The notes below the pieces were generated by a model that saw only the letters and a program-made list of their open reading frames with translations, was not told where the DNA came from and did no database searches. Of a stretch of DNA of 64,000 bases, positions 3,577-61,700 are shown in pieces. This DNA comes from a virus (Duplodnaviria; Caudoviricetes): positions 3,633 to 67,632 of IMG/VR virus record IMGVR_UViG_2788500332_000005. One strand, 5' to 3'. The position numbers and the translations under genes were made by a program. Every line of letters begins with the position of its first letter. Positions within the stretch are counted from its first letter, which is position 1.

Positions 3577-4580
3577 CACATGGTCTCCTTGAGGGTGAAG
3601 CCGCCGCGGTAATCGAGAGGCGGCTGGATCTTGGCGGGAATGGCCTTCTCCTCGCGGTGCACGGCCGGCCAGGTGATGGTGAAGCCGTCGCCCCGCGCCT
3701 TGGTCTTCTCGCCCATGCGGATCTGGAGGCGGCCCTTGAGGCCGTCGGCGATCTTGGTCGTGAAATCGAGATGGCGCTTCCAGCGCGCATAGCGCCGGGC
3801 GAGCGCGGCGGCGGCGGCGTCGCCGGTCATATCGGCCAAGGCATCCTTGACGCCCGAGGCGTAGATGTCCTTGGCCGTCTCGGAGTCGGCAAGCCACTCG
3901 GGCGCCGCCGCAGATGACCAGAAGGCCTCGATCGCCTCGGCGATCATCTGCTGCGTCGGCTCGTGCCGCTCGATGCGGCCGCGATAGAGCTTATTGCCGC
4001 CAACGGCCGCCACCACCCACCCGTGGTCGGTGCCGGCGGCGCCGATCTGGCTCTGGCTCTGGAGGTTGATGTGAAGCGGCACGCCGACGATCTCGTCGCC
4101 ATCGACCTGCCACTTATCGCGGAAGACCAGGTAGTCGACGTTCTTGATCTCGACCGGCGCCCCAGCGGCGCCCGCCTCGTGGACCTCGTAGTCGAGCGAG
4201 GCACCCCAGCCCGGCACCGTCGCATGCTGGAGATAGCGGCGGACCTTTCGGATGCCCCACCCCCATTTATCCTTCGCGGCGCCGGCGATGGCCGGCTCCA
4301 TGAAGGTGCCCATGCGAATACGCTCGACCTCGTCGAGGTCATCCGCCTCAACGCCGGCGCGGCGCTCGAGCCAGAGGCGATAGCCGGTCTTGTAGGGGCT
4401 CAGCGAGCAGAGCGGCAGGGCGGCCGGGTCATCCGGGCGCTCGAACAAATGGGTGATCGGCTCGGAACCGTCCGACAGGTGCCAGACGTGGAACAGGCTC
4501 GCGACGTCACTGCCGCCGATGTGCTTGGCGCGCAGTGCGTGCCAGGCCTCCGCCGTGCCGTCGTAGTGGATTGCAGACAT
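3576..4580 (-). CDS. YqaJ-like viral recombinase exonuclease
   Basis: WHALRAKHIGGSDVASL, G...E, ASLD...EIK, Q..Q motifs. Confidence 0.9.
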   Translation of the reverse strand: MSAIHYDGTAEAWHALRAKHIGGSDVASLFHVWHLSDGSEPITHLFERPDDPAALPLCSLSPYKTGYRLWLERRAGVEADDLDEVERIRMGTFMEPAIAGAAKDKWGWGIRKVRRYLQHATVPGWGASLDYEVHEAGAAGAPVEIKNVDYLVFRDKWQVDGDEIVGVPLHINLQSQSQIGAAGTDHGWVVAAVGGNKLYRGRIERHEPTQQMIAEAIEAFWSSAAAPEWLADSETAKDIYASGVKDALADMTGDAAAAALARRYARWKRHLDFTTKIADGLKGRLQIRMGEKTKARGDGFTITWPAVHREEKAIPAKIQPPLDYRGGFTLKETM

Positions 4581-8999: not shown

Positions 9000-9569
9000 A
9001 TGGCAAATCGGCGGAACGTGCAAGTTATGCTACCGGCCGTGTTCGACACCGGCGCGGCGAAGGTCGATGCCGAGGATCGGGCCGACGGTTCGAGGCTCTA
9101 CACCCGGCGGGCCGACGGCCGGAAATTCGCGTCCCATCTCACCGACCAGCACGCCAACCGCACCGGCTGCCTTCAGACCCTGCCCTCGCCCATCGAGGTC
9201 GCCGTCAGGCGCGAGACCATCACCCTCGCTCAGTATGCCGCTGCCGAGCAATATCGGCGCGACTACCTGATCGCCTTCTCCGGCACGCTCAAGTCGCCGG
9301 ATTTCGCCGGCAGCGGCGTGCGCACCAACCCGGCCGACAACTGGCGCATCCGCGATAGCCAAGCCATGGCCCGCCACCACTGGCGCGTCGCCACGGCTCT
9401 CATCACCAAGCAACTTGGCTCGGGCTACGTCGATCTGCTCACCAGCATCGTGGTCGACGAGGTGCCGGCCAACCGCGTCGCCAAGCGGCTCAAGCTGCCC
9501 GGGCGCGTCGGGATCCGCATGCTGCGGGAAGTGCTCGATGTGCTCGTAACCCATTACAGCGCCCAATAA
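9000..9569 (+). CDS. DUF6456-like late-gene regulator (Q-like position)
   Basis: AAEQYRRDY...IVVDE...VAKRL...LREVLDVLVTHY pattern. Confidence 0.6.
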   Translation: MANRRNVQVMLPAVFDTGAAKVDAEDRADGSRLYTRRADGRKFASHLTDQHANRTGCLQTLPSPIEVAVRRETITLAQYAAAEQYRRDYLIAFSGTLKSPDFAGSGVRTNPADNWRIRDSQAMARHHWRVATALITKQLGSGYVDLLTSIVVDEVPANRVAKRLKLPGRVGIRMLREVLDVLVTHYSAQ

Positions 9570-9597
9570 AACGCGCGCGCGAAGGAGGGAAACAACC

Positions 9598-9699
9598 ATG
9601 TGGGACACAGGCATTTTTAAGGAACTGGTTGGGATAGTGGTCTTCATCGCCGCCGTGGCCTTGATGCTCGGCATGGTTGTCGGCGTGGTTGTCGGTTGA
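9598..9699 (+). CDS. 33-aa membrane peptide
   Basis: Strong GGAGG SD; single hydrophobic helix. Confidence 0.5.
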   Translation: MWDTGIFKELVGIVVFIAAVALMLGMVVGVVVG

Positions 9700-9703
9700 T
9701 GCC

Positions 9704-10048
9704 ATGAGCGACAAACCTGAAACCATCTGCGTCGGCCTCTCCTTGGAGCCGCCGCCCGCCGCATTCAAGCTCGTTGTCAGCCGGCAGATGATCGGCGCTA
9801 TTGCGCGGGCTTTCGGGGTGAGCGAGGAGGCCGCCAAGCGAATGATAGACCCCGCTATCATAGCGGTTAAAGAGCCCATCTCCTTCCGCGATCTCTATGT
9901 GCGCCCATCCGGCAAAGATATTTCGGGGCCGCCGGAGATTCCGCTCGATCTGCCGCTCAAGAAAGCCCGCAATCTCAGGGATGCGACACCATGGACGCAT
10001 AAACGGCAGCCATGGCAGGCGCACCGGTCGAAGCGAGGGAAAAGATGA
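9704..10048 (+). CDS. hypothetical protein
   Basis: Coupled ORF; basic C-terminus. Confidence 0.55.
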   Translation: MSDKPETICVGLSLEPPPAAFKLVVSRQMIGAIARAFGVSEEAAKRMIDPAIIAVKEPISFRDLYVRPSGKDISGPPEIPLDLPLKKARNLRDATPWTHKRQPWQAHRSKRGKR

Positions 10049-10417
10049 CGATCGCTGTCCTCGCTCTCGCCACCATCACCGGCTTCTTGTTCGGTCGCTG
10101 GCTCGATCGCAACACGAGGGATAGACCGGAATGAGTGGGGATGCCGCCAAGGGGGTGTTACCCTCGGATCGCCCGCCGGCACTGGTCGAGTATTTCGAGC
10201 GCTGCGTCGTCTCCCGCGCCCTGGCGGATCTCTCCGACCGTCAGGCCGAGGATCGCCGTCGCAATCTCTGCCGGATGCCAGCCGGCGCCGATCGCGCGGT
10301 TGCGCAGGTCGGTCAGGGCGGGCTCGATCGCGTCCTGACATGCGTCGTCGCGGTCCTCGTCGCTCGCACTGCCCGGCGGCGGCGCGATTGATAGCCTGGA
10401 AATGATAGACTCTCGTC

Positions 10418-10600
10418 ATGCCGAAGATCCCGGAAAACGAGCAATGCACCGATATCGAAAGCGGACCGCCAGGTGGTGAGAGCCGCGATCTGGCGTGGGC
10501 AGAGCTCAAAAAGAAACTGTCACCAGCCATGCGGGCCGACGACAGCGAATTCACGGGCGTCTCAGCCGAGGACGTCATTCGCCGCAATCGGCAGCGCTGA
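10418..10600 (+). CDS. small protein resembling the C-terminal part of ParD-like antitoxins
   Basis: WAELKKKLSPAMRADDSEFTGVSAEDVIRRNR. Confidence 0.4.
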   Translation: MPKIPENEQCTDIESGPPGGESRDLAWAELKKKLSPAMRADDSEFTGVSAEDVIRRNRQR

Positions 10601-10602
10601 TA

Positions 10603-10630
10603 GAACAGAAAGCCCCGCCGAAGCGGGGCT
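10603..10630 (-). terminator. rho-independent terminator of the Y-RNA/rsr transcript
   Basis: AGCCCCGC-TTCG-GCGGGGCT followed by TTCTGTTCT on the minus strand. Confidence 0.75.
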
Positions 10631-10679
10631 CCCTACTGCATCGCCGGGATACTAGGGGTTTCCATCAGCTTCAGGGCAA

Positions 10680-11102
10680 TCACCTCCTCTCTTCCGTCGG
10701 CGAATATGTCCCCAGAGATAGAACTTGCGGCGTCTTGCCCTTGCGCCAGTAGATCGCCAGGAGCTCGGTGAGCTCGTCGGCGCGCTGGATGGCCTGCTCA
10801 ATCGTCTCGGCGACCAAGGCACCATTGCCGCGCTTGATCAGGCCACAGAGCAGAAGGAGCGGAACGTGACGGAGGCCGCTGGAACGCGCCTCGCGAGCGA
10901 GGTTCGACACCAAGAACGGCGGCACCTCGCCGCACAGGCGCTCAATGCGGCCGGCGATGTCCTCGCCGTCCTCGTAGAATTCACGCTCCCAGAGCAGGCA
11001 CGACATGACCGAGCGGCGAAGCGCCTGCTCCGGTGTCATGCGCGCGGCCGGCGCGCCCTCGTGGGTGGTCTCGGTGAACTTGGGCTTGGTATTGAGCTTC
11101 AT
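10680..11102 (-). pseudogene. rsr: Ro60/Rsr TROVE-domain protein, N-terminal fragment of about 125 aa
   Basis: THEGAPA...LRRSVMSCLLWEREFYEDG...LRHVPLLL...IQRADELTELLAIYW match the bacterial TROVE N-terminus; similarity is lost after GKTP and the ORF stops at 140 aa (full proteins are about 500 aa). Confidence 0.85.
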
Positions 11103-11139
11103 GGCAACCCTCAGGGGAGAGAGCCAGAAGCGGGGCAGT

Positions 11140-11277
11140 GCGGAACAGGAGATCAGGCGAAAGCGGGCTTTTGGGGTCTTTGCTTTACCACTAAGCTACC
11201 GAGGCGAACCTCAGGCGGGATTCGAACCCGCGATACAAGGCTTATGAAGTAACCGCCGTCTACGCTACCTATTCCGC
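11140..11277 (-). ncRNA. yrlA: YrlA-like Y RNA with a permuted tRNA-like domain (copy 1)
   Basis: Terminal stem GCGGAATAGG/CCTGTTCCGC; GTAGCGTAG...CGGTTACTTC; T-arm GCGGGTTCGAATCCCGC precedes D-arm GCTTAGTGGTAAAGC; GCCTGATCTCC near the 3' end. Confidence 0.85.
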
Positions 11278-11316
11278 GCTACCCCGCTGGTCTGGCAGGG
11301 CCTGAAGCGAAGCAGA

Positions 11317-11452
11317 GCGAATGTGGAGATCAGGCGAGATCGGTGTTTAGCATCCTAACCACTAGACGATTAGCCCGAAGGCTAAGGTGGATTCGAACCA
11401 CCGTCTCTCTCTTGGAAGGAGAAGTAACCGATCTCTACGCTACCACATTCGC
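11317..11452 (-). ncRNA. yrlA: YrlA-like Y RNA with a permuted tRNA-like domain (copy 2)
   Basis: Terminal stem GCGAATGTGG/CCACATTCGC; same GTAGCGTAG/CGGTTACTTC/GCCTGATCTCC motifs; T-arm GGTGGTTCGAATCCACC then D-arm GTCTAGTGGTTAGGAT. Confidence 0.85.
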
Positions 11453-11456
11453 ACTG

Positions 11457-11522
11457 CTACCTGAGAACAGGCGCCCACGGTGTTTCGTTCCAAGAAGTAA
11501 CCGTGAGCTACGCTACAGGCAG
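11457..11522 (-). ncRNA. short Y-RNA-like gene without the tRNA module
   Basis: CTGCCTG/CAGGTAG stem with GTAGCGTAG, CGGTTACTTC and GCCTGTTCTC motifs shared with the two YrlA copies. Confidence 0.7.
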
Positions 11523-11529
11523 GAGTGCG

Positions 11530-11601
11530 TTCGGGGGAATAAGCGGAAGCGGCGTCTTTTGCGTTACAGAAGCGAAGTAACCGCTACCAGCGCCACCTGA
11601 A
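11530..11601 (-). ncRNA. short Y-RNA-like gene, more divergent
   Basis: GGTGGCGCTGGTAGCGGTTACTTC...CCGCTTATTCC; starts just after the predicted transcription start. Confidence 0.6.
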
Positions 11602-11602
11602 C

Positions 11603-11658
11603 ATCATTTTTATGAGATATTAGCCTGATCATGTCAAGCGTAATCTCATAAAAATGAT
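11603..11658 (-). promoter_or_regulatory. sigma70-like promoter of the Y-RNA/rsr operon flanked by two operators
   Basis: TTGACA (11637-11632), N17, CATAAA; operators at 11603-11616 and 11645-11658. Confidence 0.65.
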
Positions 11659-17865: not shown

Positions 17866-19038
17866 TCAGTCCTTGTAGGGATCGAAGGCGTCGTTCCCGG
17901 CCATCAGAACGCCGATCGGCTTGAGCGTATGGACGACCTCAACGGTTCCGGCGTGTTCGGCGAGCACCTCGTCCAGGCGGCGGTAGGCCTGCGGCGCCTC
18001 GTCGACATCGCCACCAATGACCATCACGCCGAAGTCGCGCAGCCAGGTTTGCCAGTCGTCATGGCGGACCCGCCCCGGCTGGCGGATCTTCTTTCCCCGC
18101 TCGTCCTTCACGAACCGGCCTCGAGCTTCGGTGCGCGACATGATGCGGCCGGCGCCGTGGACCGTCGAGTAGAGCGAGGCGGCGGACTTCTCGCTCTCGA
18201 CCCCCCGGAGAATGACCGCGTTGTCGCCCATGGAGCCGCCAACAAAGCCGTATTGTCCGGGGAATGCCGGAGTGGCACCCTTGCGCACCACCCACATGCC
18301 GACGCCGCCGTGCGTTTCCTGCCACACGAAATTATGGTGGTTGTGGACCGTGAAATTCGCCGACGCGCCAATCAACCGGCGCACGCGCTCGACGACCCAA
18401 GCGCGGCCAGCGTAGGCATAGAGGCCGCCCAGCTCGACACCGGCAAGATAGCCGCGCCCGAGGTCGCTGTCGGCCTCGATCAGAGCGGGGTCGACCTCCA
18501 TGCCATCCTTGGCGCCGACGGCCTTGAGATACTTCGTCGTGATCTTGTGGCCCAGGCCGCGCGAGCCGAAGTGGACACCGATCCAGGCAAACCCGTCCTC
18601 GTCTTCGAGGATGTCGACGTAGTGGTTTCCCGAGCCGACGGTTCCGAGCTGGTCTCGGGCCATGGGCTTCAGATCCTCGACGTCGGCCGCCTTCCAGAGA
18701 TCGGAGTCGAACAGGGCATGGTCGACCTTCTCACCGTTGGAACGACCGATGCCGAAGCTGATGCAGGAGGCGATATCGGAAAGGATGGTGCCAAGCTGCG
18801 GCTTCAGATCTTCGGCACGGGCGTCCAGGCGAACGGCCATATTCCCGCATGCAATATCGAACCCGACTCCCGAGATCGAGATGTGGTTCGTGTAGCCGAC
18901 AACGCCGCCTATCGGATGGGCGTACCCAAGGTGGCCGTCGGCGCAGAGGACGCCAGCCGCGGCACTGCCGGCGGCAAGGCACCGATCAAGTTGTGCGAGA
19001 GTGCGCTCGTCGTGGTTCCCGTAGATAATGGGGGGCAT
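17866..19038 (-). CDS. rtcB: RtcB RNA ligase
   Basis: ADGHLG, GFDIACG, GTVGSGNHY, HFGSRGLGH, NHHN, VVRKGAT, GSMG, STVHGAGR, DEAPQAY. Confidence 0.95.
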   Translation of the reverse strand: MPPIIYGNHDERTLAQLDRCLAAGSAAAGVLCADGHLGYAHPIGGVVGYTNHISISGVGFDIACGNMAVRLDARAEDLKPQLGTILSDIASCISFGIGRSNGEKVDHALFDSDLWKAADVEDLKPMARDQLGTVGSGNHYVDILEDEDGFAWIGVHFGSRGLGHKITTKYLKAVGAKDGMEVDPALIEADSDLGRGYLAGVELGGLYAYAGRAWVVERVRRLIGASANFTVHNHHNFVWQETHGGVGMWVVRKGATPAFPGQYGFVGGSMGDNAVILRGVESEKSAASLYSTVHGAGRIMSRTEARGRFVKDERGKKIRQPGRVRHDDWQTWLRDFGVMVIGGDVDEAPQAYRRLDEVLAEHAGTVEVVHTLKPIGVLMAGNDAFDPYKD

Positions 19039-19074: not shown

Positions 19075-19842
19075 TCAGTCGGGAGAGTTCAGCACCACGA
19101 CAGCCGTCTTCACGTCGGTCCCGCTGCTGCGGAAGGCTCCATCCGGCAGCAGCTCGATAGTGCCGTTGCAGCCACCGACGAATTCCCGGAAGGCAATCGT
19201 TTTCTTGTTGTCACGGAAGGAGACGCTGGCCGACATGATCGCGACGAGGCGGCCTCCCGGTTTCAGGAAGCCGTAGGCATGCAGAACATGGTCGATATCA
19301 GCCTGCCGGGCGAAAGGCGGGTTCATGATCAAGCGATCAAAAACCGGGTTCGGTTCGATTGCAAGGAAGTCCCAGAGGTCGAGGCCGCCGGCGCCGAAGG
19401 CGCTATAGTTCCGCCGAACGCATTCGGCGTGTCGCTTCGGATCGATCTCGCAGCCGAAGATACCGGCGCCACTCTCAAGCTTTCGGATGACGGCAGCGAC
19501 GATGTTGCCGACGCCGGCCGATGGCTCGTAGACCTTCATCCCAGGATGGAGATCGGCCAGTTCGACGAGTTGGTCGGCCAGTTCGGGAGGGGTGTCGAAC
19601 TGGCCGAACTCCTGCTTCGTTCTGGTGACCTCGCCGGTGAGGAGAATGGGCTCGATGGCCTCGGCCGCATCCCCATCGAAAAGATGAGCGCTGGCTTTGC
19701 GGTTCCATTTCCCGCCTGCCGCCTCGATCACCTTAACCACCTTGGCGTAGGCCGGCCGGTCAAGCTGGCCGGGCAAAAACATCTTGGCGCCGTCAAACCG
19801 TGACGAATCCAGTATGCGGAGCGTGTCGTCATCGACGAGCAT
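19075..19842 (-). CDS. SAM-dependent DNA (amino) methyltransferase
   Basis: QFDTP, EPSAGVG, IMNPPF motifs. Confidence 0.85.
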   Translation of the reverse strand: MLVDDDTLRILDSSRFDGAKMFLPGQLDRPAYAKVVKVIEAAGGKWNRKASAHLFDGDAAEAIEPILLTGEVTRTKQEFGQFDTPPELADQLVELADLHPGMKVYEPSAGVGNIVAAVIRKLESGAGIFGCEIDPKRHAECVRRNYSAFGAGGLDLWDFLAIEPNPVFDRLIMNPPFARQADIDHVLHAYGFLKPGGRLVAIMSASVSFRDNKKTIAFREFVGGCNGTIELLPDGAFRSSGTDVKTAVVVLNSPD

Positions 19843-19880: not shown

Positions 19881-21173
19881 TCAGATGTGGCAGTCGACGA
19901 AGGTGATCCACTGGTCGGAGCGGAGGCCGGCGAACAGCTTGTCGAACTGTTCGGCCCAATCGGGCTTCTCGTTGGAGACGCAGGCGAACCAGCCCATCTC
20001 GCCCTTCTCGAACCACTCGCCATCCTTGAGCACGGCAAAAGCGGAAAGCGCAGGCGTGGCCTCGATCCAATCATCGATCGTCTGGCCGTCGGCGGGCTGG
20101 ACCTCATCCCAGAAGTCGGCCCGATGGTAATCCGCGGCTGCGAAACCGTGCTCCTGGATCTTCAGCCACTCGTCGAACTCATTGCCGCGCGGCCGAGGCT
20201 CGGGAAGCGCGAGCCAAGCGGCGATGGCCGCCTTGTAGGCGCGGCGCATGCTGTCGAGTTCCCCAAAATCAGCCGCTCCCGCCTGAACACGGATCTTCTC
20301 CACCATCTCGCGCATTTCAGCGACGCGGGTTGCTTTCAGGGCGGCAAGATCGAGATCGCCGACGCGTGCCTGATTGCCGACCTCCACCCAATCGGTAGGG
20401 AACTTCAACTCGCGACCGGTGCCGCTGCATCCGTTGCAGGTATAGGTCGGGTCTTCGAGCCGCCGAGCCTGCCCGATCGGATCGTCACGCCGACCGGTTC
20501 CCCGGCAGAGGGTGCAGGTCTTGTAATTCCGCTCATCCTTTTCGGGGTCATAGCCGGGAGCCAGGCGGCCACCGTAACGACCTCCGACCACCCACCAATC
20601 CCACTTAGCGTTGGGATTGGTGCGATCGATGATCTTCACCACGGCGCCAGCCTCGTCGACCACCGCGTAGCCGTACTTGTGCTCCTTTCGGAGATCCGGC
20701 TGTTCACCGGGACGAACGACCTTGGCGTCGTGCCAGCTCTCCAGCCAGTCGCGGAACGACATGACCTCGCTCGCGGGAAACTTGACCTCCTCCCAGCCGT
20801 CCGGCACGAAATGGACCTTGGAGCGATAGCCGCGACCGTCGCCCCAATCCTTGCTCTGGTAGGACATGCCGCCGGCTGTGCCTGTACCCATGGGAGCCTC
20901 GCCACCATGGTTCGCGCGGGTCAGCTCCTCATCCGTCCACTCGCGATAGAACTGGTCATCGTAGGGATCATGCAGGCCGCCGTCAGGAGCCTTGAAACGG
21001 CGTATGGTGCTTCCGGCATACTCCACCCGGCGCTTCTCGGTGATGTCGATATCCTGCACGTACTTGTCGTCCTCGCCCGTGCACTCGAACTCGTGGAAGG
21101 GCTGGAGCGCCATGGAAAGCACGTCGTCGGTCGGCTCCTGGTCGGTCACGACCAGCACACTAAAATGGCTCAT
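19881..21173 (-). CDS. phage hypothetical protein with a DnaJ-type Zn-finger insertion
   Basis: NPNAKWDWWVVGGR and DGEWFEKGEMGWF...VDCH halves; CTLCRGTG...CNGCSGTG insert. Confidence 0.75.
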   Translation of the reverse strand: MSHFSVLVVTDQEPTDDVLSMALQPFHEFECTGEDDKYVQDIDITEKRRVEYAGSTIRRFKAPDGGLHDPYDDQFYREWTDEELTRANHGGEAPMGTGTAGGMSYQSKDWGDGRGYRSKVHFVPDGWEEVKFPASEVMSFRDWLESWHDAKVVRPGEQPDLRKEHKYGYAVVDEAGAVVKIIDRTNPNAKWDWWVVGGRYGGRLAPGYDPEKDERNYKTCTLCRGTGRRDDPIGQARRLEDPTYTCNGCSGTGRELKFPTDWVEVGNQARVGDLDLAALKATRVAEMREMVEKIRVQAGAADFGELDSMRRAYKAAIAAWLALPEPRPRGNEFDEWLKIQEHGFAAADYHRADFWDEVQPADGQTIDDWIEATPALSAFAVLKDGEWFEKGEMGWFACVSNEKPDWAEQFDKLFAGLRSDQWITFVDCHI

Positions 21174-60371: not shown

Positions 60372-61700
60372 ATGAGCCAATTTGATTTCGGGGCAATCGA
60401 TCCGTCGAGCATGTCGGGAACGGAGCTGGCGGCCGCGCTCGGGTCGTTCCGCGATGCGTTGAACTCGCACCACTCCGGCGAATCCAGGCCTTCCTATGTC
60501 CAGGAAGGAATGATCTGGGTTTCGAAAGCCGCTACGCCCTACACCGCCTACTTCTTCGACGGGACCACCGATATCGCGCTGTTTACGATCGACCCGAGCA
60601 CCCACGCGAAGACGGTCCCGGACTATGCCCCCCTCGCATCGCCGGGTCTGTCCGGCACCCCGACCGCGCCGACGCAGAGCGCCAAGAACAGCAGCACTCG
60701 GCTGGCCACCACCGCCTTTGTGCAGGGGGAGAAAGGCTACAAGCGCGGTGTCACCGTACTCACCGCATCGACGACGCTGGGCAGCGCCCATCTGGGCAAC
60801 CTGGTGGTCTGCAACTCGGCGAGCGCCACCACCATGACGCTGCCGGCGGCATCGTCCTACACTCAGGGCATCCTTTCGCTGGTCAACATCAACACCGGCT
60901 TGGTCACGCTGTCGGGCAGCATCATCTACGACGGCGCAACCGTCACTTCGCTCACACTGCCGGCCGGCGCATCGATCGATCTGGTGTCCAACGGTACATC
61001 GTGGGTCGCCATCCAGCAGACGTTGCCGGTCAAAGAAGATGCCGAGTGGATTACGGGCACCAATACGGTGCCGGCGCCCATCAGCCCGGCGCAGCTGGAC
61101 GCGGCGGTCGCGGCGCTGGCTGGCGGTGGTGCCATTTCTTATCAAGAAATCCTGACCTCTGGCGTATGGACGAAGCCTGCTGATCTCAGCCCGGACGCCC
61201 TCATTATTTCCCTGCTGTGGGGTGGTGGCGGTGGTGGTTACAATAGCGGAGCGTCACGTGGCGGCGGCGGCGGCGGCTCATGTGCATGGGCTATCTGGAA
61301 AGCCTCTGCGTTGCCAGATGAGGTGTCCGTTACAATCGGGGCAGGTGGGGGACCGGCATCTGCAGGGGGGACGACATACTTTAACGACCTATATGCGGTT
61401 GGTGGTGCTGGCGGCACTTCTGCTACTTCCGTTGGCGGGGACAGCGGTTTTGGGGCTGCTTTTGCCGGGGGAGCAGGCGGATCAGGTGCCAGCTCTCCTA
61501 GCGCCGGAGGTAACTCAATATGGGGTGGTGCCGGGGGGGCTGGCCAATATAACTCTATAACCCGCGCTGGAGGAAATTCTATTATAGGCGGTGACGGCTC
61601 GGGTAATCTGAACAGCTTCACACCTGAAGTACCCGGAGGGGGAGGATCGAATAATGCCTCCGGTGCTGCCGGAATGGTTCGTCTGTTCATCATCGAGTAA
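60372..61700 (+). CDS. tail fibre protein with a Gly-rich C-terminal domain
   Basis: YAPLASPGLSGTPTAPT...LATTAFV; GGGGGG repeats; more AT-rich 3' part. Confidence 0.8.
   Translation: MSQFDFGAIDPSSMSGTELAAALGSFRDALNSHHSGESRPSYVQEGMIWVSKAATPYTAYFFDGTTDIALFTIDPSTHAKTVPDYAPLASPGLSGTPTAPTQSAKNSSTRLATTAFVQGEKGYKRGVTVLTASTTLGSAHLGNLVVCNSASATTMTLPAASSYTQGILSLVNINTGLVTLSGSIIYDGATVTSLTLPAGASIDLVSNGTSWVAIQQTLPVKEDAEWITGTNTVPAPISPAQLDAAVAALAGGGAISYQEILTSGVWTKPADLSPDALIISLLWGGGGGGYNSGASRGGGGGGSCAWAIWKASALPDEVSVTIGAGGGPASAGGTTYFNDLYAVGGAGGTSATSVGGDSGFGAAFAGGAGGSGASSPSAGGNSIWGGAGGAGQYNSITRAGGNSIIGGDGSGNLNSFTPEVPGGGGSNNASGAAGMVRLFIIE

What the first reader, a model, noticed from the sequence alone, without database searches (positions are those of the whole stretch)
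11140..11601. Tandem array of four Y-RNA-like genes, two with permuted tRNA-mimic domains
Seen in sequence: four minus-strand units share G(T/G)(A/T)GCG(T/C)(A/T)G...CGGTTACTTC near the 5' end and GCCTG(A/T)TCTC-like sequence near the 3' end (more divergent in the last unit), each closed by its own terminal stem. The two long ones contain a T-arm (GGTTCGAATCC) before a short closed stem and a D-arm (TAGTGGT), with no anticodon loop or CCA. Established: this permuted layout beside a Ro60/Rsr gene defines bacterial YrlA RNAs, and short companions resemble YrlB. Four divergent copies in a phage, under an operator-flanked promoter, suggests active use during lytic growth (inference).
Basis: partly seen in the sequence, partly recalled or inferred. 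Interest (0 to 1): 0.85.

Follow-up and report, generated by a model that had tools for sequence, protein, structure and literature searches.

The report
Four prophage Y RNAs, Ro60 truncated
A prophage carries four tandem genes for small Y RNAs (partners of the ring protein Ro60), two of them with a built-in rearranged tRNA look-alike; this is a known phage and bacterial system in a variant form, and here the Ro60 gene has been cut down to its first quarter.

Summary
On the minus strand, 11602-11124, four tandem units follow one promoter-like site. All share GCG-N8-GGTTACTTC (4 hits, 0 expected). Each is recognised by covariance models trained only on other phages (U1 44, U2 60, U3 99, U4 105 bits), with no other hit in 64 kb.

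The shared module has a closing stem, a GG(U)GG/CYCC helix with a bulged U, a conserved internal loop and an 8-bp stem. It is strongly supported by covariation: 87% paired against 41-50% for slid controls.

U3 and U4 carry a T arm, a loop-closed acceptor stem and a D arm in permuted order. After in-silico de-permutation ARAGORN calls both tRNAs.

- U3 has a complete anticodon-like arm.
- Rfam YrlA is not reached at its curated score (45 against 69 bits).
- The adjacent Ro60 gene keeps only codons 1-125 of about 435.

About 25 related phage loci have arrays of 2-6 such units before an intact compact Ro60. They include the cultured Xanthomonas phage 10KY502B and Caulobacter phage CcrColossus.

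Phage Ro60 with Y RNAs is already in print, and this scan found similar loci on other DNA. I rate it a new variant of a known kind, of moderate interest.

The parts
11643..11658 (.). Distal copy of a 16-nt operator-like palindrome (ATCAT-N4-ATGAT core), just upstream of the -35 box
   Evidence: an exact copy of the site at 11603-11618. There are 15 sites with up to 3 mismatches in the window against 0.06 expected.
11632..11637 (-). -35-like hexamer TTGACA
   Evidence: Read. A 17-nt spacer leads to CATAAA. The strict scan did not list it because the -10 box ends in A. Related loci have TTGACA/TTGCA-type sites at the same place.
11609..11614 (-). -10-like hexamer CATAAA, inside the proximal palindrome
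   Evidence: The predicted transcription start, about 11604-11601, coincides with the first base of the closing stem of U1.
11603..11618 (.). Proximal copy of the operator-like palindrome, overlapping the -10 box and the predicted start
11529..11602 (-). U1, a short Y-RNA unit of 74 nt. It has the 5' box GGUGGCGCUG, the stem GUAGCGG/CCGCUUC, UUACUUC and the 3' box CGCUUAUUCCCC.
   Evidence: 44.4 bits with model R2 (window left out, filters off) and 38.6 bits with R3. The single-sequence fold is not better than shuffles (z -0.3).
11453..11526 (-). U2, a short Y-RNA unit of 74 nt. It has GUAGCGUAG, the stem CUCACGG/CCGUGGG, UUACUUC with a UUC-N7-GAA mini-hairpin, and CGCCUGUUCUC.
   Evidence: 59.7 bits, E about 4e-13, with R2. 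The lowest-energy fold equals the family structure, z -2.96.
11317..11452 (-). U3, a long Y-RNA unit of 136 nt with a permuted tRNA-like domain. Its parts are an anticodon-like arm (11423-11407), a T arm (11402-11386), a UUCG-capped acceptor hairpin (11385-11370) and a D arm (11367-11352).
   Evidence: 99.3 bits with R3 and fold z -3.58. After de-permutation ARAGORN calls tRNA-Gly(UCC)-like in 147 of 168 junction variants, against 0 in natural order and 0 in shuffles.
11124..11295 (-). U4, a long Y-RNA unit (core 11277-11140, 138 nt) on an extended closing stem. Its parts are a T arm (11231-11215), a UUCG-capped acceptor hairpin (11214-11199) and a D arm (11196-11182). It has no self-contained anticodon hairpin, which is the classical YrlA topology.
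   Evidence: 104.8 bits with R3 and 39-40 bits with R1 and R2. Rfam YrlA gives 45.1 bits, E 1.2e-8, at 11154-11259. De-permuted, it is called tRNA in 48 of 168 variants.
10680..11102 (-). Truncated Ro60/TROVE gene of 140 codons. Homology to phage Ro60 covers residues 1-125 only and ends near 10728.
   Evidence: phrog_850 'RNA-binding protein', profile positions 15-124 of 476. There is no Pfam TROVE hit. Full-length relatives of 423-469 aa carry TROVE plus vWA. tblastn with a full-length relative finds only residues 1-126. Nothing more is found in the 67.6-kb provirus record.
17866..19038 (-). RtcB RNA ligase gene on the same strand, 6.3 kb upstream (context, not part of the array)
   Evidence: Pfam PF01139, 211 bits.

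Best explanation
The stretch encodes four Y RNAs of a phage subfamily of the bacterial YrlA/YrlB class. They are probably made as one precursor from the TTGACA-17-CATAAA promoter and cut into separate RNAs: two of about 74 nt and two of about 136-170 nt.

Each RNA has a docking module for a Ro60 ring protein. The module consists of a closing stem, a short helix GG(U)GG/CYCC with a bulged U, a sequence-conserved internal loop (YGWA opposite GYYURUU, a relaxed form of the published GNCGAAN0-1G Ro-binding motif) and an 8-bp stem. It is followed by an effector loop that always begins UUACUUC.

In U3 and U4 the effector loop is a circularly permuted tRNA look-alike. It has a T arm, a loop-closed acceptor stem and a D arm, and in U3 also a full anticodon-like arm.

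By analogy with studied Y RNAs, the module would hold Ro60 and the tRNA-like part would recruit tRNA-binding or RNA-degrading enzymes such as PNPase. That would serve RNA quality control or repair during infection, alongside the phage RtcB ligase.

What is shown: the RNAs' anatomy, their conservation, their covariation and their constant position before Ro60 genes in related phages. What is inferred: transcription, processing, Ro60 binding and the effector.

In this provirus the phage's own Ro60 is reduced to a 125-residue stump. The RNAs must therefore use a host Rsr, act without Ro60, or be recently orphaned.
For: Motif counts:
- Four in-register copies of GCG-N8-GGTTACTTC against none expected.

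Short-unit alignment of 23 sequences from 21 loci:
- 87.2% of cells pair against 41-50% for slid partners.
- 15 of 18 pairs show double changes.
- The covariation score is 0.657 against 0.12-0.22.
- G to A in the 5' box covaries with C to U in the 3' box in the window's own units.

Long units:
- RNAalifold on 16 long units independently recovers the module plus the T, acceptor and D helices, with 26 of 32 pairs compensated.

Models trained without the window:
- They score U2 59.7, U1 44.4, U3 99.3 and U4 104.8 bits, and find nothing else in 64 kb.

Synteny:
- 41 matches at E below 0.01 in 260 kb all lie just upstream of Ro60 genes.
- The cultured phages 10KY502B and CcrColossus have at least 3 and 4 matches by the model. 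Reading the 10KY502B sequence shows 5 units.

tRNA likeness:
- 14 of 16 long units become ARAGORN tRNAs at default settings after de-permutation, against 0 in natural order and 0 of 168 shuffles each.
- Rfam YrlA matches U4 with E 1.2e-8.

Partner protein:
- Full-length neighbours are TROVE plus vWA proteins.

Literature:
- YrlA-type RNAs lie next to Ro60 in 254 bacteria and 22 phages, M. smegmatis YrlA and YrlB are cut from one precursor upstream of rsr, and the GNCGAAN0-1G motif is described (PMC4201824).
- Thermus phage phiLo Ro60 binds two upstream Y-like RNAs and host PNPase (PMC12135203).
Against: - No unit reaches the Rfam YrlA gathering score. U4 gets 45.1 against 69, and U3 gets no YrlA match at E up to 10.
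- The window's 5' boxes (AGCGUAG, GGCGCUG) do not fit GNCGAAN0-1G exactly.
- The Ro60 gene is truncated, and no other TROVE sequence lies in the provirus record.
- There are no expression, processing or binding data.
- The single-sequence fold of U1 is no better than shuffles, and that of U4 is only weakly better (z -0.3 and -1.55).
- The -10 box is weak.
Confidence: 0.8

Rival explanations
1. Orphaned relic. The four RNA genes are genuine Y RNA genes by descent, but they have had no function in this provirus since the deletion that removed three quarters of the Ro60 gene. They look intact only because the loss is recent.
For: The Ro60 reading frame stops being homologous after residue 125, and the rest is absent from the 67.6-kb record. 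The DNA that follows (9570-10727) matches nothing in related loci or in the phage collection. Short Ro60-like products on long contigs elsewhere suggest that such breaks recur.
Against: All four units keep every invariant position of the family except one U to A change in U3 and U4. Their scores fall within or above the range of units that sit next to intact Ro60 genes. The promoter and its two palindromes are intact. A host Rsr could substitute, but this could not be checked.
Confidence: 0.3
2. Ro60-independent tRNA decoys. The tRNA-shaped domains act on their own as competitive inhibitors or sacrificial substrates of host tRNA-cleaving defence nucleases, and the phage RtcB reseals cut tRNAs. 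U3, with its complete anticodon-like arm, is the best candidate.
For: U3 and 5-8 of the 14 long units from other loci carry a 5-bp stem with a 7-nt loop of the form CU-NNN-AA, followed by an AGGUC-type variable loop. An intact RtcB gene lies on the same strand. The Ro60 partner is missing here. Hughes et al. proposed that the YrlA tRNA-like domain might inhibit an anticodon nuclease (PMC7790460).
Against: The anticodon-like loops differ from locus to locus (Gly, Thr, Ser, Pro, Asn and Gln types), so no common nuclease target is apparent. The Ro-docking module is the most conserved part. In nearly all relatives an intact Ro60 follows the array. There are no data on cleavage.
Confidence: 0.12
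3. Decayed tRNA gene cluster. The array is what remains of a phage tRNA gene array, and the shared boxes are relics of acceptor and D-arm sequences.
For: The Rfam tRNA model matches pieces of long units in relatives just above its threshold (L009 32.7 bits, L016 29.5 bits). GenBank annotates a 'tRNA-Thr' inside the array of phage 10KY502B. The 5' box plus GGUUA resembles the 5' third of a tRNA.
Against: The non-tRNA module is conserved and covaries across more than 20 loci. The pairing that would make the 5' box an acceptor strand has no support, with 59% paired against 56% in shuffles. Neither ARAGORN nor Rfam finds a tRNA here in natural order. The arrays always sit before Ro60.
Confidence: 0.03
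4. Cis-acting leader. The structured region is a 5' untranslated regulatory leader of the Ro60 mRNA, not a set of separate RNAs.
For: The array lies between a promoter and the Ro60 start codon, with no terminator in between.
Against: It is built of 2-6 self-contained modules, each closed by its own stem, whose number and order vary between loci. In M. smegmatis the equivalent RNAs are cut from such a precursor and bound by Rsr (PMC4201824).
Confidence: 0.03

Closest known systems
YrlA (Rfam RF02553): bacterial and phage Y RNAs with a tRNA-like domain, partners of Rsr/Ro60 (Chen et al. 2014, PMC4201824; Wang et al. 2018, bioRxiv 10.1101/312249)
   Same: They are encoded just upstream of, and on the same strand as, a Ro60 gene. 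They have a closing stem with a conserved 5' motif of the GNCGAA-G type. They have a T arm, a loop-closed acceptor stem and a D arm in permuted order. U4 matches the Rfam model with E 1.2e-8 and has the classical topology, in which the two strands leading to the docking module form the anticodon-stem equivalent.
   Different: They fall below the Rfam gathering score. The 5' motif is relaxed to GGUGGYGWAG (AGCGUAG in the window). There is an invariant UUACUUC and a 3' box CGYYURUUCYC that are not part of the published description. [quoted passage not shown]
YrlB / Yrn2-type short Y RNAs (S. Typhimurium, M. smegmatis, D. radiodurans; PMC4201824)
   Same: U1 and U2 are short hairpin-like companions with the same docking module and a small pyrimidine-rich loop. 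They are encoded in tandem with the long RNAs.
   Different: There is no sequence relationship to Salmonella YrlB that I could test. Here the short and long units clearly share one module and differ only by the insert.
Thermus phage phiLo Ro60 with Yrl1 and Yrl2 (PMC12135203), and the Ro60 loci of Caulobacter phage CcrColossus and the mycobacteriophages
   Same: A phage Ro60 gene is preceded by tandem Y-like RNA genes. CcrColossus carries at least four units that match my model, and its Ro60 is 62% identical to the Ro60 of relative L008.
   Different: phiLo has two units identified through a CGAA motif, and no tRNA-like domain is reported for them. In the window the Ro60 gene is broken.
Salmonella rsr-yrlBA-rtcBA RNA repair operon (PMC7790460)
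   Same: Ro60, Y RNAs and RtcB are encoded on one strand of one element.
   Different: Here RtcB lies 6.3 kb away with unrelated genes in between. I saw no RtcA or RtcR near the array, but I did not search the window for them.

Membership tests
YrlA (Rfam RF02553) | Scores at or above the curated gathering score (69 bits) of the Rfam covariance model | tested here: not met
   One search gave no match at gathering. One search gave U4 45.1 bits (E 1.2e-8 in 1 kb), while U3 had no YrlA match at E up to 10. None of 17 related loci reached it either.
YrlA (Chen et al. 2014 description) | Encoded within about 4 kb of a Ro60/Rsr ortholog, on the same strand | tested here: met
   The array ends 22 nt before the start codon of a Ro60-type frame. 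That frame, however, is a 125-codon remnant.
YrlA (Chen et al. 2014 description) | GNCGAAN0-1G motif near the 5' end | tested here: inconclusive
   Many relatives have GGCGAAG exactly. The window has AGCGUAG in U2-U4 and GGCGCUG in U1, which differ at 2 positions. The G to A change is compensated by C to U in the 3' box (pair 14-72).
YrlA (Chen et al. 2014; Wang et al. 2018) | tRNA-like domain with a T arm, a loop-closed acceptor stem and a D arm in circularly permuted order | tested here: met
   Shown by RNAalifold, the R3 model and the de-permutation test with ARAGORN for both U3 and U4.
YrlA (Wang et al. 2018) | No anticodon loop; the anticodon-stem equivalent is formed by the 5' and 3' strands that lead to the Ro module | tested here: not met
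   U4 fits. U3 does not, because it has a self-contained stem-loop, UUCUC-CUUCCAA-GAGAG, before the variable loop.
Y RNAs in general | Bound and stabilised by Ro60/Rsr; in YrlA, the tRNA-like domain is modified by TruB and DusA | not testable with these tools
   This needs immunoprecipitation, gel-shift assays and modification mapping.
Ro60/Rsr (TROVE plus vWA ring protein) | Complete HEAT-repeat ring (TROVE) followed by a vWA/MIDAS domain | tested here: not met
   The window's 140-aa product matches only profile positions 15-124 of 476 of phrog_850 and has no Pfam TROVE or vWA hit. Relatives have both domains.
tRNA | Cloverleaf in the natural 5'-3' order with open acceptor ends | tested here: not met
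   There is no ARAGORN or Rfam tRNA call in the array. The pairing of the 5' box with the strand after the T arm is not supported.

The most novel reading that the evidence does not exclude
The array works without Ro60. After the partner gene was lost, or even before, the tRNA-shaped RNAs act as decoys or inhibitors for host tRNA-cleaving defence nucleases, teamed with the phage RtcB ligase. U3, with its full anticodon-like arm, is the leading candidate.

A related evolutionary point also stands. Three forms coexist in one phage family: units with a complete anticodon arm, classical YrlA-type units, and tRNA-ordered isomers. Together they would be living intermediates for the proposed origin of Y RNAs from dimeric tRNA transcripts.
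Probability: 0.12. Interest if true: 0.75.

Novelty: new variant of a known kind. Interest (0 to 1): 0.45.

Why it matters
Y RNAs with tRNA-like domains next to Ro60 are established in bacteria and in a few phages, but their effectors and their role in infection are unknown.

This locus belongs to a well-populated phage subfamily with cultured members (Xanthomonas phage 10KY502B and its relatives, Caulobacter phage CcrColossus, and Brevundimonas jumbo phages). Rfam does not capture it at its threshold, and GenBank leaves it unannotated or calls pieces of it tRNA.

The subfamily offers a sharply defined docking module, an invariant UUACUUC element of unknown role, and three topologies of the same tRNA mimic. 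That makes binding and effector questions directly testable in cultured phages.

The window itself adds a natural experiment: apparently intact RNAs beside a truncated Ro60 gene. It is not a new principle.

Tried and rejected
- Rfam at gathering threshold on the window gave nothing. On 17 related loci it gave only tRNA hits.
- ARAGORN on the window found no tRNA in the array. Its single call, at 61396-61468, is probably false.
- I looked for the rest of the Ro60 gene with Pfam TROVE and phrog_850 over the whole provirus record and with tblastn of a full-length relative. I found only residues 1-126.
- I looked for what replaced it. Six-frame peptides of 9500-10760 against all fetched loci gave no hit. 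blastn of 9570-10727 against 50,697 phage records gave no match. One PHROG call failed on a frame with stops and I did not repeat it.
- I tried to identify the host, to ask whether it encodes Rsr. The question stays open.
- I tested an alternative fold in which the 5' box pairs with the strand after the T arm, a 'first tRNA' cloverleaf. It is rejected, with 59% paired against 56% in shuffles.
- cmsearch with filters off scores long units poorly, because the insert is penalised. A dedicated long-unit model solved this.
- The supplementary tables of Chen et al. 2014 and the 2020 Annual Review were not available. I could not see how many units were already listed for CcrColossus.

Full report
**What is there**

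The window is part of a 67.6-kb provirus record of about 64% G+C. Read on the minus strand, the stop codon of an upstream reading frame (11662) is followed by several elements in order:
- a 16-nt palindromic site (11658-11643);
- TTGACA (11637-11632);
- a 17-nt spacer;
- CATAAA (11614-11609), which lies inside a second exact copy of the palindrome (11618-11603).

Four structured units then follow, and after them a ribosome-binding site and the ATG at 11102.

The palindrome has an ATCAT-N4-ATGAT core. It occurs 15 times in the window with up to 3 mismatches, against 0.06 expected. It is therefore a dispersed regulatory site of this phage, and 'operator-flanked promoter' is a fair description. 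The strict promoter scan did not list the site, because the -10 box ends in A.

**The four units are real**

GGTTACTTC occurs four times in 64 kb, all here, against 0.17 expected. GCG-N8-GGTTACTTC also occurs four times, against 0.00 expected.

My unit boundaries, from the closing stems, are:
- U1 11602-11529;
- U2 11526-11453;
- U3 11452-11317;
- U4 11277-11140, with a stem that can extend to 11295-11124.

U1 starts at the predicted transcription start.

**Relatives**

A search of IMG/VR with the downstream protein and with the RNA motif gave 23 loci. The phage collection gave cultured relatives:
- a group of about 43-kb Xanthomonas and Xylella phages (10KY502B, Sopo, Tenjo and others);
- Caulobacter phages CcrColossus and CcrPW;
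- Brevundimonas jumbo phages.

In all but two of these loci a 423-469-aa protein follows the RNA region. The exceptions are L006, which matched only residues 240-432, and L010, whose gene runs off the contig end. The four full-length proteins I scanned have a TROVE domain, and three also a vWA domain, which makes them compact Ro60 proteins.

Upstream of these genes I found 2-6 units with the same boxes per locus. Phage 10KY502B has five, and CcrColossus has at least four. Four copies is therefore ordinary for this group.

**The shared module**

I aligned 23 short units from 21 loci (A1) and tested the following structure:
- a closing stem;
- a helix GG(U)GG/CYCC with a bulged U;
- an internal loop, YGWA on the 5' side and GYYURUU on the 3' side;
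- an 8-bp stem;
- a loop that begins with the invariant UUACUUC.

On this structure 87.2% of cells pair, against 41-50% when the partners are slid. 15 of 18 pairs show changes on both sides. The covariation score is 0.657 against 0.12-0.22, and no shuffle out of 500 reached the observed values.

The window's own peculiarity fits this structure. Its units have GGUAGCG instead of GGUGGCG, and UCUC instead of UCCC. These two changes fall on the two sides of one pair, which is a compensated change.

The 5' box is a relaxed form of the GNCGAAN0-1G motif that Chen et al. proposed as the Rsr-binding element (PMC4201824). Many relatives have GGCGAAG exactly.

**Unbiased recognition**

Models built without any window sequence gave these scores:

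| Unit | Score | Model and call |
|---|---|---|
| U2 | 59.7 bits | R2, |
| U1 | 44.4 bits | R2, filters off, |
| U4 | 104.8 bits | R3, long-unit model, |
| U3 | 99.3 bits | R3, long-unit model, |

Neither model found anything else in the 64 kb on either strand. Across 260 kb of fetched loci, all 41 matches at E below 0.01 lie just upstream of Ro60 genes.

Single-sequence folding is significant for U2 and U3 (z -3.0 and -3.6). It is weak for U4 (-1.55) and absent for U1 (-0.3). For U1 the case therefore rests on comparison with the other units, not on thermodynamics.

**The tRNA-like domains**

RNAalifold on 16 long units (A2) recovered the module plus three further helices: a 5-bp T stem with a 7-nt loop, a 6-bp hairpin in the acceptor position and a 4-bp D stem. 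26 of the 32 predicted pairs are compensated.

As an objective test of 'permuted tRNA', I cut each long unit in the acceptor hairpin loop and joined the end of the D arm to the UUACUUC side, trying 168 junction variants per unit. ARAGORN at default settings then called a tRNA in 14 of 16 units. U3 was called in 147 of 168 variants and U4 in 48 of 168. It called none in natural order and none in 168 shuffles per unit.

Rfam YrlA matches U4 at 45.1 bits, E 1.2e-8 in 1 kb, but this is below the gathering score of 69. That alignment also places the Ro motif in the wrong register.

**A correction and a nuance**

U3 has a complete anticodon-like arm, UUCUC-CUUCCAA-GAGAG, followed by a 4-5-nt variable loop. 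At least five of the other 15 long units have the same, and their inner stem pairs covary as UC:GA, GC:GC and GA:UC.

Published YrlA 'lacks the anticodon loop'; its anticodon-stem equivalent is made by the two strands that lead to the Ro module (bioRxiv 10.1101/312249). U4 has that classical topology. U3 has the break between the D arm and the anticodon arm instead.

In L020 and L021 the same parts occur in tRNA order, with open acceptor ends. There the docking module, closed by a CCGAAAGG loop, sits where the anticodon loop should be. Rfam calls these 124-128-nt elements tRNA with a 64-65-nt insert.

I also tested the alternative that the 5' box is an acceptor strand of a 'first tRNA'. It is not supported. 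The 'tRNA-Thr' that GenBank annotates in phage 10KY502B is the 5' two-thirds of its fifth Y unit.

**The partner gene is broken**

The 140-codon frame at 11102-10680 matches phage Ro60 only over residues 1-125. This is seen in three ways: phrog_850 positions 15-124 of 476, 45-68% identity to relatives, and tblastn of a full-length relative stopping at residue 126.

No TROVE or vWA sequence is found anywhere else in the provirus record. The 1.1 kb that follows matches nothing in related loci or in the phage collection. It is bounded by a convergent replication module with DnaB, an initiator and DUF6456.

The RNAs show no decay. They keep the family's invariant positions and score as well as units beside intact genes.

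**How it most likely works**

By analogy with D. radiodurans, Salmonella, M. smegmatis and Thermus phage phiLo, the RNAs dock a Ro60 ring through the conserved module and bring in an effector through the variable loop (PMC4201824, PMC12135203). The effector is PNPase in the studied cases, and for the tRNA-like domain it is an unidentified tRNA-binding factor.

An intact RtcB ligase gene on the same strand fits a phage RNA-repair or RNA-quality-control set, as discussed for jumbo phages (PMC7824862) and for the Salmonella operon (PMC7790460).

Shown here: anatomy, conservation, covariation and synteny. Inferred: transcription from the promoter, processing, Ro60 binding, the effector and the timing.

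The main rivals concern function in this particular provirus. One is a recently orphaned relic. The other is Ro-independent tRNA decoys.

**Novelty**

Phage Ro60 genes with upstream Y-like RNAs are in print, as are multiple Y RNAs per locus. This scan has already reported similar phage loci on other DNA.

What I could not find described:
- the precise module, GGUGGYGWAG ... UUACUUC ... CGYYURUUCYC;
- the complete anticodon arm;
- arrays of up to six units;
- the three coexisting topologies.

The supplementary tables of Chen et al. and the 2020 review were not available to me. I therefore rate the finding as a new variant of a known kind, of moderate interest.

Noticed in passing
L020:3648-3771 and L021:3488-3615 (also L019 around 3690-3800): These are tRNA-ordered isomers of the long Y units. 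They have an open 7-bp acceptor stem, a D arm and a T arm, with the Ro-docking module (closed by a CCGAAAGG loop) inserted where the anticodon loop should be. Rfam scores them as tRNA (44.8 and 51.6 bits) with a 64-65-nt insert. The same parts therefore occur in three circular permutations within one phage family.
   Followed up: partly
L025:1957-2024 (Xanthomonas phage 10KY502B, record 20624-20691); L026:1152-1219 (CcrColossus): GenBank annotates a 'tRNA-Thr' and a 'tRNA-Gln' inside the otherwise unannotated 680-760-nt region before the Ro60 gene. In 10KY502B the 'tRNA-Thr' is the 5' box, the anticodon-like arm and the T arm of the fifth Y unit. I did not dissect the CcrColossus case.
   Followed up: partly
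window 4646, 5683, 11603, 11643, 16810, 21685, 21768, 24235, 24273, 26442, 29895, 33137, 39603, 42758: A 16-nt AT-rich palindromic site (ATCTCATAAAAATGAT, core ATCAT-N4-ATGAT) occurs 15 times against 0.06 expected. Several of the sites I checked lie just upstream of reading frames, sometimes in pairs. It is probably the operator of a phage regulator.
   Followed up: partly
window 9570-10727: About 1.1 kb lies between the truncated Ro60 frame and the convergent replication genes. It has no convincing gene, no match to related loci and no match in 50,697 phage records. Terminator-like hairpins lie at 10624-10612 and 10546-10516 (minus strand).
   Followed up: partly
window 61396-61468: ARAGORN calls a tRNA-Gly(TCC) here, but Rfam finds no tRNA at its threshold, and the sequence looks like a GGN-rich coding repeat. 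It is probably a false positive.
   Followed up: partly
window 17866-19038 (minus): An intact RtcB RNA ligase gene (Pfam, 211 bits) lies on the same strand as the Y RNA array, followed by an N6 DNA methylase-like gene at 19075-19842.
   Followed up: partly
window 11295-11124: U4 sits on an unusually long closing stem: CCAGA-CC-AGCGGGG ... GCGGAAUAGG paired with CCUGUUCCGC ... CCCCGCU-UCUGG. It ends 22 nt before the Ro60 start codon. It may be a double-strand-specific processing site that separates the RNAs from the mRNA.
   Followed up: no
proteins P0012, P0034, P0038, P0049, P0052: Short Ro60 N-terminal products (125-245 aa) are also called on long contigs elsewhere, including a Granulicella cerasi chromosome. 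Broken or split Ro60 genes may therefore be recurrent. Most other short hits are simply contig-end fragments.
   Followed up: no
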